Source: the human T2T-CHM13v2.0 reference genome, Homo sapiens. From it: a stretch of DNA of 64,000 nt. Both the position numbers and the translations under genes were made by a program. Every line of letters begins with the position of its first letter. Positions within the stretch are counted from its first letter, which is position 1. This document shows, one piece after another, positions 13,803 through 27,199 of the stretch. Under the pieces are notes generated by a model. That model was not told the origin of the DNA, made no database searches, and saw only the letters and a program-made list of their open reading frames with translations. Location of the stretch: assembly GCF_009914755.1 (NCBI RefSeq), contig NC_060939.1; one strand, written 5' to 3'.

Positions 13803-13917
13803 AGATTGAGTTTATCCCGTGATGAAGCTCAAAATCAGTTATGCTTTTCTATCTCCTCTGTTGTATTTCTCCTCAACGTCCACTTCTGTGAGTGAGTAAG
13901 GTTGTCTGTTTTGACAG
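13803..13917 (-). pseudogene. Candidate exon D of the decayed CARD-domain gene
   Basis: Strong acceptor CTCCTTTTTCTGTTCATTCAG and donor CT|GTAAGT; 115 nt; non-repetitive; stops in all frames. Confidence 0.45.
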
Positions 13918-14410
13918 CTGAATGAACAGAAAAAGGAGGTTTTAAAAGCAAAAGTCTGCTGTGTCCCAGTTTCCCAGTTAACTCCATTCTCTCTAGCCAT
14001 TCATGGCATGGAGACAGAAAAATCACAGAGCAATCAGAGTGCATTTTCTGAAATCAGTCTCAACTGCGGAGTGGGAACGTGCCACTCTGAGGAACTTCCT
14101 TCCGGCCCGGCTTTTGTGACATGTCGTGTGGTAGCGGTCGTATTCCATCCCACCTTGTCCTCCAATGCTGAGCTCAAGGATTTGGGAAAGCACATGGTCC
14201 CACCCCGAGGTCACAGGGAGGGCTTTCGCCACAGCAGATGTGTGTGCCGTTCACATGTCCTCGACAGCCAGCGGAGTCACAATTGATTTTGATGTTAATA
14301 TGGCAAAATCCATTAGGGAGAAAAACTTTCCCCCATTCATTGACTCACAACCCAAGTAGAAATTGTTTTTTGACATTATCCACATTCCTGTTCTTCCCAT
14401 GAGGCATATT

Positions 14411-14662
14411 TGAGGCGGGCAGATCACCTGAGGTCAGGAGTTCGAGACCAGCCTGGCCAAAATGCTGAAACACCGTCTCTATTACAAATACAAAAATTGG
14501 CTGGGTGTGGTGGTGCGTGCCTGTAATCCCAGCTACTTGGAGAAGCTGAGGCTGGAGAATTGCTTGAACCCAGGAGGCGGAGGTTGCAGTGAGCCGAGAT
14601 CTCACCACTGCACTCCAGCCTGGGTGACAGAAAAAGACTGTCTCAAAAAAAAAAAAAAAAAA
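14411..14662 (+). mobile_element. AluS, 5' truncated
   Basis: GAGGCGGGCAGATCACCTGAGGTCAGG..A tail. Confidence 0.9.
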
Positions 14663-15649
14663 GAGCTGACATTCTAGGTGTTTAATAATACCATACTATC
14701 ATATCTAGTGTGATAAAATAACAACATGCATTTTCCACAGGACTATATTTCAAAAGAGTATGAGATGATTATATTATATTTTTAGACCAAAGTTTCACTG
14801 ATGCAGAAAAATCTGTAAGTTGCAGGTTTATTTTTAATAAACAAAATCGACTTTATGCACCTTGTAGGTTAACCTAACCGACATTATTGTAATTTATTCA
14901 GTAGGTAGGGAAGTTTGAACTCTACTCTTGAATTCATGGCGGGATATATTAATAGTAGGGAGCATGCGGGGAAGTACGCAGACATTGTTAGCAATAAGCA
15001 GTGAACACACAGAGAGTGGTGATATAAAGATAAACCAATACAGACAGAATGTCCAAATAAGGCCCCAGTAGGGCATGTTTTCCACGTTTCCTAGCAGGGT
15101 TGGGAATACCCTATTTAGATTTTCAGACCAGAAAAGGGTAATGAAGTCAGAGAGATTAGCCTGGGCAGAAAGGGAAGAATGGACCAGGGGCCATCCATTC
15201 TTCCCTGTGCTGGTGAGAGCACAGGTCACGGCTACAGAGAGGGGGGTCAACCTAAGGATGCAGGCAGGGTTGGCTATAACAGTTCCTTGGGAAATGGAAG
15301 TGTAGGAATATTGTTGGCTTAGTTTTAAACCCAGAAGAGGAAATAGCTCTGGAACTTAGGCTGGGGGATGGGGGCAGAAAGGACTCAGGTCTTTATTCCT
15401 AGACTACTCCAGTACATATCTTACCCCATGGGCACCTGTATCAACAGACTCTGAGGGAAAGGTTTGCAGCAGACATGGACCTTGAAAATGCTGGAAAAAG
15501 AGAAGGTGCTGATCCTCCCCAGGAATCAGAAGACCAAAAGCCTTAGAAACTCAAAGAAAGAAAGCTATAGCAGGGGGCCTACTTTGGCTCCCAGACTTCA
15601 GCTCTCAGGGCCAACATAGAGCTATGATTTGAGGACTGTTCTTTCCATC

Positions 15650-16460
15650 TGTATTAGTTAGAATTCCTCCAGAGAAAGAGAACCAACAGAATACAAACAC
15701 ACACACACACACACACACACACAAAGATATTGAGATAAACATCTCAGTATATATGTGTGTATATTTATATACACATATAAAATTTGATGAAATGTATTTT
15801 AATGAATTGGCTTAAGAGACTGTGGAGCAGTAGTAGATCCAAACTATGCAGGGTTGACCAGCAGACTGGAGACCCAAGGAAGAGTTACAGTTAGATTCCA
15901 AATGCAGTCTGTTGGCAGAATTCCTTCTTTCTCAGGAAGGGTTAGTCTCTGTTCTATTGTCTTTAACTGATTGAATGAGATCCCCCACATTTTGAATAGT
16001 AATCTGCTTTTACTCAAAGTTCACCAATTAATTTATTAAATTATTTATTTGAGATGGAGTTTTGCCCTGTCGCCCAGACTGGATTGCAGTGGCGTGATCT
16101 CAGCTCACTGCAACCTCCACCTCCCAGGTTCAAGAGATTCCCCTGCCTCAGCCTCCTGAGTAGCTGGGATTGCAGGCGTGCGCCACCACACCTGGATAAT
16201 TTTTTTTTTGTATTTTTAGTAGAGACGGGATTTCACCATGTTGGCCAGGCTGGCCTTGAACTCCTGACCTCAGGCGATCCACCTGCCTCGGTCTCCCAAA
16301 GTGCTGGGATTACAGGCGTGAGCCACCGTGCCCAGCCCAAAGTTCACCAATTTAAATGTTAATTTCATCCAAAAAAAAAAAAAGAAACATCCAGAATAAT
16401 GTTTGACCAAAGATCTGGGCACTGACCTGGCCAAACTGACACATAAAATTAATTATCACA
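15650..16460 (-). mobile_element. ERVL LTR (MLT2-like), interrupted by an Alu at about 16045-16338
   Basis: TGTATTAGTTAG..CTCCAGAGAAA..AACCAA..(CA)n..GACACATAAAATTAATTATCACA; Alu TSD AAAGTTCACCAATT. Confidence 0.75.
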
Positions 16461-24683: not shown

Positions 24684-24699
24684 CCATGCCAATTTTTTT

Positions 24700-25975
24700 A
24701 AATGACAACTTTATTGAGATGTAATGTGCATACCACAGAAATCACCCTTTTAAATATATGTAACATATTTAATATATTTTAAAATATTTACTATATTAAA
24801 TATTAACATATTTATATTTATATAGCATATTATATAACATATTTATTATATATTATATATTTATTATAATATATATAATATATAATATATTAATATAAAA
24901 TATATACTATATATTATATTAATATATCATTATATATGATTACATATTATAATATATTAATACAATATATTATATTAATATATGATATTATATTATCATA
25001 TATTATATAATATATGATATATCATATATTATATAATATATGATATATCATATATTAATATAATACTAATCATTATAATAATATATTATATAATGATATA
25101 TAATAATAATATAATAATTATATTATATATTTATATATAATATTATATTATATTATTTTTATTATTTATTTTTTATTTTTTATTTTTTTATTTTTATTTT
25201 TTATTTTTATTTTATTTTATTTTATTTTTTAAATTTATTTTTATATTTTTATTTTATTTTATTTTATTTTTTTATTTTTTATTTTTATTATATATTATAT
25301 TATATTATATTATAATATTATTATATAATAATAATGTAATATATTATATTATATATATTTATATCATATTATATAACATATTTATATTTATATAACATTA
25401 TATAACATTTATATTTAATATTAACATATATTTAATATATTAAATATATATAACTATATATAAATATTTATATTAGTTCAGTAGTTTTTGGCATATTCAC
25501 AGTTGTGTGCAAACATCATAATCTAATCTCAGAACATTTTCATTATCTCAAAAAGAAATACTGTATCTGTCAGCAGTCACTTCCCATTCCCCCACTACTT
25601 CTGCTCCTGGCAACCACTAATCTACTTTGTCTCTGTGGATTTTCCTATTATGGACATTTCATAGGAACGGAAACCTACAGATGTACGTTTTGTGATGGGC
25701 TTCTTTCTCTTAGCATAAAGTTTTAAAGGTTCATCTGTGTTGTAGCATGCATCAGTAATTCATTTCTTTTTACAAAATAATATTCTGTTGTGCAGAGAGA
25801 CCATATTTTGTTTATCCATCTGGTTGATGGGCAATTGGGTTGTTTCTACTTTTTGGCTATTATGAATAATGCTGCTATGAACCTTCTTAGACCAGTTTTT
25901 CATGGACACATTTTCATTTATCTTGAGTTTAGGAACCAAGAATGGAGTTGGTAGATCATACGTCAACTCTAGCAT
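24700..25975 (-). mobile_element. Old L1 (L1MB-type) 3' end hosting an AT expansion
   Basis: CAACTTTATTGAGAT..CACCCTTTTAAA [AT tract] GTTCAGTAGTTTTT..ATATTCACAG..CCTGGCAACCACTAATCTACTTT. Confidence 0.75.
24750..25475. repeat. AT-rich low-complexity tract, about 720 bp
   Basis: Almost entirely A/T: (TA)n-like units with a central (TTTTA)n block. Confidence 0.95.
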
Positions 25976-26344
25976 TTTGAAGAACCATGATCATTTTTGT
26001 GCCTCTACGTGCAGAATGAAAGCTAAGTCCAGCTTCCTTAACCTATTAATATTTTATGTCTTGCACTTAAAAATCCTCATTAAAACAAGAAAGATATAAA
26101 TATTTCTATAAGATGATTAGAAATCATCCCTCAGGTTGTGTCAGGAGCTGTGCACGGTTTTATTGGGCATCACAGATGCTTACTTCTATATCACGAGATT
26201 TTAGAGAGAAGCATTGGGTATTTTTATTAAAGTAAAAATCAATGCAGGGTTGAAACTCATGATTACATACTGTGGCTGGGTACCTGATATTTTGGTTAGA
26301 TCATAATTAAGCTTACTACTTTTTAGAGCAAACTATGTCCTTAC

Positions 26345-26684
26345 CTTTGTAATAAAGAAAAAAACAGGTGAGTAGGTAAGGGCAGAATTCCTCCAGATGA
26401 GAGCAGAAAGCACAGAAGGCACTTGCACCTTTGAAAAGGAGCTACAGGAGAAAAGCCTCCACTCTCTTGGGATAGCAATCCTGAGGGAGGATCTCTCGGT
26501 ACTCCTTTAAGGAGAACAGCCATCAGACGCCAAGTGCGGGAGCGCCTGACTCACAGTGAATTCCTTCAGGATCTTCTCTTTATAACTCATCAGTATCCGA
26601 GAGCCACTTGTTCCTCTTCTCCTTTTCTCTCTGTGTTCTTGTCTCACTGTCATAAAACCAAGACTTGGCTCTTCTCTCAAACAT
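26345..26684 (-). pseudogene. Pseudo-exon encoding a CARD-like (death-fold) domain; exon A of a decayed gene
   Basis: Repaired frame MFERRAKSWFYDSETRTQREKEKRNKWLSDTDEL/KEKILKEFTVSQALPHLASDG/LFSLKEYREILPQDCYPKRVEAFLL*LLFKGASAFCAFCSHLEEFCPYLLTCFFLYYK. Lesions: +1 near 26582, -1 near 26520, TAG 26444-26442. ATG 26684 has A at -3. Donor AAG|GTAAG, phase 1. Confidence 0.7.
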
Positions 26685-27199
26685 CCTGGTGTGTGGAGAA
26701 CTCGGGAAATATCTCCCTCCTGGGTCTTGCTGCTCTGTGCCCTCCGTGGGCAATGTCCACACCGCACCGACACCTACAACCAAAACCATACTGCCACCTG
26801 GAATTATTACAGATCTGCGGGAGGAAGGGAGGCTTCAGATTAAAGCCAGGAGCTGCCCAATGCTGACCGTCCTGTCCCAAGACAATTGTGCTGCACTAAT
26901 CAACCCCTTGCCGCAGTAAACTTCAAAAGACGAAAAGAGATGCAGTCTGGCTAACCCCTGATCAATGTAAATCCCTCCTTTATCTCCAAATAATCATTTC
27001 CCCAGCTCCCCACACCCTCAAATGATGACTTTCAACACTTTGAATATAACAGGCTCACAGTCTGTATTCAATGGTCTCATCATAAGGCAGGAAGCCCTAT
27101 CAGGAACTGCGCTGCTCTCCTATCCCTACACTTCCCACCACGTAGTTCGGGGTTAGGCAGGGAATTGCAGTAAAGCTATACACAGTAAAGAAAAGTTGG

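What the first reader, a model, noticed from the sequence alone, without database searches (positions are those of the whole stretch)
13803..26790. Multi-exon fossil gene pointing toward TJP1: a lost CARD gene or a lost CARD-ZO-1 (CARMA/DLG5-like) isoform
Seen in sequence: four non-repetitive minus-strand segments with canonical splice sites and matching phases. A = 26684-26345 (out phase 1); B = 19558-19432 (1 to 2); C = 18843-18396 without the Alu (2 to 2); D = 13917-13803. The A-B junction reads ..FLYYK-E*THRTLQ.. . Introns are present, so this is not a retrocopy. No terminal exon is evident, so the gene may continue off the left end. Established knowledge: CARD10/11/14 and DLG5 combine an N-terminal CARD with PDZ-SH3-GUK; TJP1/ZO-1 is a MAGUK without a known CARD. 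From memory, TJP1 lies proximal to GOLGA8J on the minus strand. Inference: these exons are either a unitary pseudogene or an ancestral 5' extension that made a CARD-bearing ZO-1, which would couple tight junctions to CARD-mediated signalling in other vertebrates.
Basis: inference. Interest (0 to 1): 0.9.

Follow-up and report, generated by a model that had tools for sequence, protein, structure and literature searches.

The report
Dead CARD exons of human ZO-1
Upstream of the human tight-junction gene TJP1 lie two broken exons that in other vertebrates still give the ZO-1 protein an N-terminal CARD signalling domain, so the human genome read here can no longer encode an old version of this much-studied protein.

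Summary
Exon A (26684-26345, minus) and exon B (19558-19432) are single-copy relics of coding exons. All 56 related proteins found match A (best E 2.6e-51); 37 match B (best E 3.5e-19). Intact orthologues carry a Pfam CARD (15 of 16). In 12 named mammals, a bird, a frog and a salmon, gene models put this CARD at the N-terminus of full-length ZO-1/TJP1. A zebrafish paper describes such an isoform, ZO1b-Alpha, with cloned full-length sequence (PMC10703405). The human copy has two frameshifts and two stop codons. The next exon used by those models is intact inside human TJP1 and in phase with exon B. No human paralogue exists. Exon C has only a weak match to one hamster model. Exon D has stops in all frames and no homologue, and such segments arise often by chance. 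I found no paper on the human loss. Its date and cause are untested. A segmental duplication begins about 4 kb upstream of exon A.

The parts
26345..26684 (-).
   Evidence: frame 1 for residues 1-30, frame 2 for LMSYKEKILKEFTVSQALPHLASDG, then frame 1 again from FSLKEY to YYK. 56 of 56 related proteins match here. Single copy in the genome.
26685..26789 (-). Conserved sequence just upstream of the ATG (5' leader; the true 5' end of the exon is unknown)
   Evidence: protein P0012 aligns over window 26789-26319 at 58% identity. The loris and whale models extend upstream of the shared ATG.
26594..26594 (-). Frameshift 1: an orphan base between the D codon (26597-26595) and the L codon (26593-26591), consistent with a 2-base loss in the codon that is I in dog
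26517..26518 (-). Frameshift 2: two bases remain of the codon that is V in all 10 named mammals (..DG-V-FSL..), a 1-base loss
26442..26444 (-). In-frame TAG where most orthologues have K (FLLK / FFLK)
26343..26344 (-). GT donor of exon A (AAAG|GTAAGG), still canonical
19432..19558 (-).
   Evidence: 37 of 56 proteins match (best E 3.5e-19). Dog exon B matches at 67% identity.
19554..19556 (-). In-frame TAA at the second full codon of exon B, where all 10 named mammals except the hamster (gap) have Q
18396..18843 (-). It may correspond to the last exon of one hamster CARD-only gene model. It is not part of any CARD-ZO-1 model
   Evidence: 8 of 17 identical to the hamster P0022 tail. One search shows that in all full-length models exon B is followed directly by the VTPSS.. 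exon.
18421..18733 (-). Alu insertion inside exon C, flanked by the 12-base duplication GGCATGAATGGA
   Evidence: The hub table lists a masked repeat at 18414-18740.
13803..13917 (-).
   Evidence: Stops in all three frames and no protein match. 42 chance segments are open in the required phase.
30498..36700 (.). Edge of the chromosome 15 segmental-duplication block that holds GOLGA8J. Copies at 88-90% identity start near 30498 and copies at 96-97% near 31627, which is 3.8-4.9 kb upstream of the exon A ATG

Best explanation
Exons A and B are decayed remains of the two isoform-specific 5' coding exons of an 'alpha' form of TJP1/ZO-1. In other vertebrates, gene models (and cloned full-length sequence in zebrafish) join a far-upstream CARD exon and a linker exon in frame to an exon shared with a second isoform, and then to the first common ZO-1 exon. 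The product is ZO-1 with an N-terminal CARD, a six-helix module that usually binds other CARDs. In the human genome read here these two exons cannot encode that protein, because two frameshifts and two stop codons lie within about 155 codons. The downstream TJP1 exons are intact. Shown here: homology, the lesions, single-copy status, position and strand, the phase match, and the CARD fold of the dog orthologue. Inferred: that the mammalian models reflect real transcripts, that the CARD recruits a CARD partner or drives self-association at junctions, and that the human lineage lost the isoform by relaxed selection, perhaps after the nearby duplication block disturbed its promoter.
For: Homologues of the human exon A piece: 56 proteins at E <= 0.01 of 97 candidates. 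31 of them are full-length proteins named ZO-1/TJP1 (1612-1962 aa). Their N-termini read CARD exon, then linker exon, then VTPSSENPNGAT..GKPSLRRIKGRLHRSKSLDS.., then ..AMEETAIWEQ... A search with dog residues 1-157 gave 33 hits of 178 candidates, all named ZO-1/TJP1, and added Peromyscus. A profile search gave 36 hits, all named ZO-1/TJP1, and added a bird (E 2.7e-36), a frog (2.9e-33) and a salmon (3.9e-28). Pfam CARD matches 15 of 16 aligned orthologues; dog scores 36 bits against a cut-off of 23.9. The AlphaFold model of the dog N-terminus (mean pLDDT 75.8, six helices) aligns best to CARD structures: CARD9 CARD Z 8.7, rmsd 3.1 A over 77 residues, and 34 of the first 37 rows are natural CARDs. 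24 of the 29 Foldseek rows listed through rank 31 are natural CARDs, though all have E >= 0.12. Human lesions. In the human genome the cat N-terminus maps in order on the minus strand of chromosome 15: exon A, exon B, the VTPSS exon (86% identical, open, inside the annotated TJP1 span), then the common exons. The human VTPSS exon has an AG acceptor, begins with one base that completes a codon, and has a GT donor, so it fits the phase-2 end of exon B. A beta-type first exon (MKYQKYLTVLQMAI..) lies between them, which mirrors the zebrafish order alpha, beta, gamma (PMC10703405). There is no second human copy: DNA, the human piece as protein (next best E 1.9), the dog protein (next best E 0.7).
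Against: All the mammalian, bird, frog and salmon CARD-ZO-1 proteins are computed gene models. I could not see the RNA evidence behind them. Five named species have CARD-only models instead, and one of them (hamster) uses a segment like exon C. No haplorhine primate, mouse, rat, cow or pig protein appeared in any search, so the spread of the isoform among mammals is uncertain. The human conceptual protein is no more diverged from dog (113 of 153 identical) than the intact loris protein is (108 of 157). It differs at 6 of 53 columns invariant in 10 mammals, against 0-5 of 53-58 in leave-one-out tests on the others. So relaxed constraint shows mainly in the four lesions. Whether the lesions are fixed in humans was not tested. 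The human piece alone is below the Pfam CARD cut-off.
Confidence: 0.8

Rival explanations
1. An independent small CARD-only gene next to TJP1, now a unitary pseudogene in humans. On this view the CARD-ZO-1 proteins of other species are read-through artefacts of gene prediction.
For: Five named CARD-only models exist: loris 218 aa, Scotinomys 267, Chinese hamster 172, black flying fox 230, narwhal 190.
Against: The CARD-only models share no common end. The loris model runs into the intron after exon B (KYVNIL.., which matches the human intron). The flying-fox model includes the TJP1 VTPSS exon before it runs on. Many unnamed short proteins are simply open frames running past the exon A donor (..YYQGKN..). 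Models from different sources, as the search table labels them (NCBI 'isoform X' records, UniProt entries for dog and salmon, differently named bat records), make the same in-frame join. The zebrafish authors report cloning full-length tjp1b/ZO1b-Alpha and detecting its first exon by RNA in situ (PMC10703405).
Confidence: 0.1
2. The locus still works in humans in a non-CARD way, for example as a distal TJP1 promoter with a non-coding leader, or as a long non-coding RNA. On this view only the coding capacity is lost.
For: The ATG and all the splice signals of exons A and B are still canonical. Most residues that are invariant in other vertebrates are kept.
Against: The RefSeq table supplied by the hub lists no gene or transcript here. 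There is no CpG island upstream (GC 0.45-0.52). I could examine no expression data.
Confidence: 0.07
3. A duplicated or retrotransposed fragment of another human CARD gene.
For: None found. Pseudogene fragments do lie nearby (hub table).
Against: Exon A DNA is single copy. Protein searches of the whole genome find only this locus. Introns are present. The nearest human CARDs to a profile of the orthologues score only 19.6-25 bits in a small local search: a CRADD-like open frame on chromosome 3, CRADD itself, and ICEBERG.
Confidence: 0.01

Closest known systems
Zebrafish ZO1b-Alpha (tjp1b alpha isoform), PMC10703405
   Same: ZO-1 with an N-terminal CARD, made from the most upstream of three start sites. 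The alpha-specific exons are followed by exons shared with the beta isoform and then by the common exons. In the human locus the order is CARD exons, a beta-like first exon, then the shared exon.
   Different: The human exons are broken. The zebrafish sequence was not compared directly. The paper found little neuronal expression and assigns the CARD no function.
Predicted CARD-bearing TJP1/ZO-1 isoforms of mammals (NCBI 'isoform X' models of cats, bats, guinea pig and deer mouse; dog UniProt A0A8C0M1W4)
   Same: Direct orthologues: 60-78% identity to the human exon A piece, with the same exon A/B boundaries and phases.
   Different: They have open reading frames. They are models, and I could not see their transcript support.
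DLG5 and the CARMA proteins (CARD10, CARD11, CARD14)
   Same: A CARD at the N-terminus of a PDZ-SH3-GuK scaffold. This domain order for DLG5 and CARMA is recalled knowledge; passages of PMC5978004 call the CARMA MAGUK part 'ZO-1/Dlg5-like'.
   Different: Only about 90 residues lie between the CARD and PDZ1, so a long CARMA-type coiled coil cannot fit. By sequence the CARD is nearest to RAIDD/CRADD, and no CARD9 or CARMA chain appeared at E <= 1. By structure the CARD9 CARD ranks first but is tied with NOD1, caspase-1 and Apaf-1.
RAIDD/CRADD CARD (PDB 3crd) and ICEBERG (1dgn)
   Same: The best sequence matches among solved structures: E 0.015 and 0.51. The same two lead among human CARD exons in a local profile search.
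   Different: The matches are weak, so this is a separate CARD lineage and not a copy of either.

Membership tests
CARD (Pfam PF00619, death-fold) | Sequence match to the family model above its curated cut-off | tested here: met
   Orthologues: 15 of 16 match, best E 1.7e-10, dog 36 bits against a cut-off of 23.9. The broken human piece alone scores 15.2 bits, E 0.023, below the cut-off.
CARD (Pfam PF00619, death-fold) | Six-helix bundle fold | tested here: met
   Dog model: six helices, pLDDT 87-95 over residues 41-100. VIA-align top row is the CARD9 CARD, Z 8.7, rmsd 3.1 A over 77 residues, and 34 of the first 37 rows are natural CARDs. Z near 8 is middling for helical proteins, so the uniformity of the list carries the weight.
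CARD (Pfam PF00619, death-fold) | Homotypic CARD-CARD binding or filament formation | not testable with these tools
   No partner is known and no complex job was sent.
Alpha-type (CARD-bearing) ZO-1 isoform, as zebrafish ZO1b-Alpha | CARD exon upstream of the other TJP1 start sites, on the same strand | tested here: met
   On the minus strand of chromosome 15 the order is exon A, exon B, a beta-like first exon, the shared exon, the common exons (hub table for the TJP1 span).
Alpha-type (CARD-bearing) ZO-1 isoform, as zebrafish ZO1b-Alpha | In-frame splicing of the CARD exons to the ZO-1 body | tested here: inconclusive
   It is in frame in the models of 15 named species, and the phases fit in human. 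No RNA evidence could be examined for mammals. The human frame is broken.
Alpha-type (CARD-bearing) ZO-1 isoform, as zebrafish ZO1b-Alpha | Sequence orthology to the published zebrafish CARD | not tested
   The zebrafish sequence is in a figure file (S2 Fig) that I could not read. A salmon TJP1 model served as the fish stand-in (E 3.9e-28).
Unitary (unprocessed, single-copy) pseudo-exons | Disabling lesions, intact orthologues elsewhere, and no functional copy in the same genome | tested here: met
   Two frameshifts and two stops. Open orthologues in 20 named species. No paralogue.
CARMA / CARD-coiled-coil family | Long coiled coil between the CARD and the MAGUK part | tested here: not met
   Only exon B (43 residues) and the shared exon (about 45) separate the CARD from ..AMEETAIWEQ.. 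and PDZ1. In the dog model, which ends at residue 157 (the end of exon B), the last helix ends at residue 133 and the rest has low confidence.
CARMA / CARD-coiled-coil family | CARD of the CARD9/10/11/14 lineage | tested here: inconclusive
   The profile search of solved chains lists RAIDD and ICEBERG only. The structural search puts the CARD9 CARD first but within 1 Z of several unrelated CARDs.
DLG5 | CARD related to the DLG5 CARD | not tested
   No DLG5 sequence was in hand. The Pfam CARD scan of the human genome listed 31 matches, none on chromosome 10 and none at this locus. That DLG5 lies on chromosome 10 is recalled.

The most novel reading that the evidence does not exclude
Humans, and perhaps a larger group of primates, have lost a CARD-bearing form of ZO-1 that is otherwise kept from fish to mammals. 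The loss was triggered when the chromosome 15 GOLGA8 duplication block landed about 4 kb upstream of the CARD exon and cut off its promoter. If so, tight junctions in cats, dogs, bats and rodents have a direct CARD link to innate-immune or cell-death signalling that human epithelia lack.
Probability: 0.2. Interest if true: 0.75.

Novelty: new member of a known kind. Interest (0 to 1): 0.6.

Why it matters
ZO-1 is among the most studied junction scaffolds, and its textbook domain map (recalled: three PDZ, SH3, GuK, ZU5) has no CARD. The data here point to a CARD-bearing isoform that is old and conserved: models from fish, frog, bird and several mammal orders, with 24 columns invariant across dog, bird, frog, salmon and the human piece over the part the human piece covers. 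The human genome holds only its wreck. This gives a concrete question, namely what the CARD of ZO-1 binds and in which tissues. It also gives a natural human 'knock-out' of one isoform. Work on human cells cannot see this isoform at all; whether the mouse has it is unknown, since no mouse protein appeared. The relic sits at the inner edge of a GOLGA8-bearing duplication block, which I recall to be the 15q13 breakpoint region, so it may be a case of an isoform lost beside a young duplication.

Tried and rejected
1. The one job of the search of protein representatives was wasted by my own slip. I gave 26345-26530, which reads the wrong frame. Its single hit (E 4.9e-4) means nothing.
2. A Pfam scan of the whole minus strand 1-27000 in three frames, as six long read-through translations, found no family at E <= 0.1. 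It did not even find the CARD, so this format is insensitive and says little about other domains.
3. The human exon A piece against solved chains gave only chance-level non-CARD rows.
4. My first paper search used 'card' as a word start and returned only cardiology papers.
5. Paper searches for ZO-1/TJP1 with a CARD turned up one relevant work, the zebrafish paper and its preprint. I found nothing on a mammalian CARD-ZO-1 or on its loss in humans. This holds for the library searched only.
7. A whole-genome search with an alignment was not accepted, so I used the dog sequence alone.
8. Dating the loss was not possible, because no primate DNA was available. The loris model is open and no haplorhine protein appeared, but absence from these searches is weak evidence.
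9. Foldseek against solved structures gave no row at E <= 0.001. The list is nevertheless almost all CARDs.
10. The Pfam CARD scan of the human genome (31 matches at E <= 0.01) did not list the chromosome 15 relic.

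
Full report
**What was checked.** The finding names four minus-strand segments. I read each of them. Exon A (26684-26345) starts at an ATG and ends at AAAG|GTAAGG. Exon B (19558-19432) has an AG acceptor and a GTATGT donor. Exon C has an acceptor, a donor and an Alu flanked by a 12-base duplication. 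Exon D has an acceptor and a donor.

**Is exon A a CARD?** The human piece is too damaged for a clean answer. Pfam CARD matches residues 56-104 of frame 1 at E 0.023, 15.2 bits, under the 23.9 cut-off. Solved chains gave nothing useful. The answer came from relatives.

**Relatives.** I searched with the last 59 codons of exon A, stops read as X, among proteins longer than the query. This gave 56 proteins at E <= 0.01 out of 97 candidates, 60-78% identical.
- 31 of the 56 are full-length proteins named tight junction protein ZO-1/TJP1 (1612-1962 residues). They come from five cat species, dog, four bats and guinea pig. Their precomputed domains are PDZ, SH3, GuK and ZU5, and most rows also list CARD (the guinea-pig rows and those of three of the bats do not, although their sequences carry the same region).
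- The other 25 are short. Five are named: slow loris, a singing mouse, Chinese hamster, black flying fox and narwhal. Twenty come from unnamed short contigs.

The N-termini of the long proteins read: CARD exon, linker exon, then VTPSSENPNGAT..GKPSLRRIKGRLHRSKSLDS.., then ..AMEETAIWEQHTVTL.. and the first PDZ domain.

Two further searches widened the range.
- Dog residues 1-157 gave 33 hits of 178 candidates, all named ZO-1/TJP1, and added deer mouse.
- A profile of 16 orthologues gave 36 hits among 8000 scored candidates, again all ZO-1/TJP1. It added a flycatcher (E 2.7e-36), the tailed frog (2.9e-33) and Chinook salmon (3.9e-28), each with the same layout.
- An alignment of dog, bird, frog, salmon and the human piece has 24 invariant columns over the part the human piece covers, among them FSL.E, KR.E.F, KG..AF.AF.S.LEE..P.LL.

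**The domain in intact relatives.**
- Pfam CARD matches 15 of 16 aligned orthologues, best E 1.7e-10.
- An AlphaFold model of the dog N-terminus has mean pLDDT 75.8, with 87-95 over residues 41-100, and six helices.
- Foldseek gave no row at E <= 0.001, but 24 of the 29 rows listed through rank 31 are natural CARD structures.
- VIA-align over 48,161 chains puts the CARD9 CARD first (Z 8.7, rmsd 3.1 A, 77 residues). NOD1, caspase-1 and Apaf-1 lie within 1 Z. 34 of the first 37 rows are natural CARDs. Z near 8 is not strong for helical proteins, so the uniform list together with the Pfam score makes the case.
- By sequence the nearest solved CARD is RAIDD/CRADD (E 0.015), then ICEBERG (0.51).
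- A local profile search of the human CARD exons gave the same two, plus a CRADD-like open frame on chromosome 3.

**How the human copy is broken.** I aligned the three reading frames to dog, loris, guinea pig and cat and mapped them onto the sequence. There are four lesions.
1. After codon 30 a single orphan base (26594) sits between the D and L codons. This is a net 2-base loss and shifts frame 1 to frame 2.
2. At 26518-26517 only two bases remain of the V codon in ..DGVFSL... This shifts back to frame 1.
3. A TAG at 26444-26442 replaces the K found in most relatives.
4. A TAA at 19556-19554 replaces a Q at the second full codon of exon B.

The start codon and all the splice signals of A and B are intact. 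Apart from the lesions the decay is mild. The human conceptual protein is 113 of 153 identical to dog; the open loris protein is 108 of 157. It differs at 6 of 53 columns that are invariant in 10 named mammals, while each of those mammals, left out in turn, differs at 0-5 of 53-58. I cannot date the loss, because no primate DNA was available to me.

**Position relative to TJP1.** The hub table puts TJP1 on the minus strand from window -347864 to -77325. I mapped the cat N-terminus onto the human genome. It lands in order on the minus strand of chromosome 15.
- Exon A: 53% identity, three stops.
- Exon B: 65% identity, one stop.
- The VTPSS exon, at T2T 27,747,853-27,748,005: 86% identity, open. 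This is window -90147 to -89995, inside TJP1.
- Then the common exons.

The human VTPSS exon has an AG acceptor and starts with one base that completes a codon. This is what the two bases left by exon B need. It ends at a GT donor. Between exon B and that exon, just inside the annotated 5' end of TJP1, lies an open first exon beginning MKYQKYLTVLQMAI. It resembles the start of the zebrafish Beta isoform, as that can be read from an oligonucleotide printed in the paper. Exon B is about 97 kb from that TJP1 start and about 109 kb from the VTPSS exon.

**What is in print.** PMC10703405 (PLoS Genet 2023) is the one relevant work. I read passages by term search and part 1 of section 6.
- Zebrafish tjp1b starts at three sites, giving ZO1b-Alpha, -Beta and -Gamma.
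- Only Alpha (2005 residues) has a recognisable N-terminal domain, a CARD.
- Alpha and Beta share two exons before the first common exon.
- The authors cloned full-length sequences of all three isoforms.
- By RNA in situ, Alpha transcripts showed little neuronal signal but overlapped with the others in skin, otolith and jaw.
- The paper assigns the CARD no function. In the passages my term searches returned, mammals come up only in the statement that mammalian ZO-1 has several isoforms.
- Its S2 Fig holds the N-terminal sequences but is an image, so I did not compare the zebrafish CARD directly.

Passages of PMC5978004 and of bioRxiv 10.1101/2023.03.06.531260 describe the CARMA proteins as a CARD-coiled-coil protein fused to a 'ZO-1/Dlg5-like' MAGUK. 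Six searches aimed at ZO-1/TJP1 with a CARD found no paper on a mammalian CARD-ZO-1 or on its loss in humans. For all other papers I saw only the search listings.

**Exons C and D.** No full-length model uses them; exon B is always followed by the VTPSS exon. In tblastn of all 56 proteins, nothing matches D, and only the hamster model matches C. With the hamster tail alone as query, the second-best hit in the window falls exactly at the start of C (8 of 17 identical, 12 of 17 similar, E 0.008). That leaves room for a CARD-only side transcript in rodents, but it rests on one prediction. D has stops in all three frames. A loose scan of the 19.4 kb downstream of exon B finds 216 acceptor-like sites, 125 donor-like sites, 147 AG..GT segments with an open frame, and 42 open in the needed phase. 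Splice sites and phase alone therefore prove nothing for C and D.

**Rivals.**
- *A duplicated pseudogene* is excluded for this assembly. Exon A DNA is single copy. The human piece finds nothing else below E 1.9. The dog protein finds nothing else below E 0.7.
- *A separate CARD-only gene with artefactual fusions* is possible but unlikely. The CARD-only models have no common end. The loris model runs into the intron after exon B. The flying-fox model includes the TJP1 VTPSS exon. Many unnamed short proteins are open frames that run past the exon A donor. Models from different sources make the same join, and the fish isoform was cloned.
- *A surviving non-coding role in humans* cannot be judged without expression data. 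The hub table lists no transcript here, and there is no CpG island upstream.

**Surroundings.** Sequence 1-13800 matches elsewhere only as interspersed repeats. Upstream of exon A, multi-copy chromosome 15 sequence begins at about 30,498 (copies at 88-90% identity) and 31,627 (copies at 96-97%), running into GOLGA8J. So the CARD exon sits 3.8-4.9 kb from the edge of a segmental-duplication block. That this insertion disabled the alpha promoter is an inference I could not test.

**Verdict.** The thing itself, a CARD-bearing ZO-1, is already described in zebrafish and present in many gene models, so it is not a new kind. What appears to be new is that the human genome carries it only as two dead exons. 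This raises a testable question about what the ZO-1 CARD does in the animals that keep it.

Noticed in passing
window 30498-36700: The inner edge of the chromosome 15 duplication block. Copies at 88-90% identity (chromosome 15 and contig C24) start near 30498. Copies at 96-97% identity (six places on chromosome 15) start near 31627 and run into GOLGA8J.
   Followed up: partly
L020 744-788, minus strand (T2T chromosome 15 about 27,760,343-27,760,387; window about -77,657 to -77,613): An open first exon of human TJP1 beginning MKYQKYLTVLQMAI. It resembles the N-terminus of zebrafish ZO1b-Beta as read from an oligonucleotide printed in PMC10703405.
   Followed up: partly
L041 (T2T chromosome 3: 159,763,029-159,763,193, minus strand): An open 141-residue frame very like the CRADD N-terminus and CARD (it begins MEARDKQVL..). 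It scored slightly better than CRADD itself against the ZO-1 CARD profile. It is probably a CRADD retrocopy; I did not look further.
   Followed up: no
   Followed up: yes
window about 24744-25479: A long AT-rich, low-complexity tract in the intron between exons A and B. It shows as runs of I, Y, N and K in the translations and is listed as masked in the hub table.
   Followed up: no
window 27195-27300: The tail of an Alu and a (CA)n run lie about 0.5 kb upstream of the exon A ATG. AG-ending pyrimidine tracts at 26810-26825 and near 26797 could mean that exon A is not the first exon of the transcript.
   Followed up: no
protein P0008 (Scotinomys teguina, 267 aa): After exons A and B this model continues with about 110 residues that match neither the VTPSS exon nor anything significant in the window. 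It could be another alternative exon set or a prediction error.
   Followed up: no
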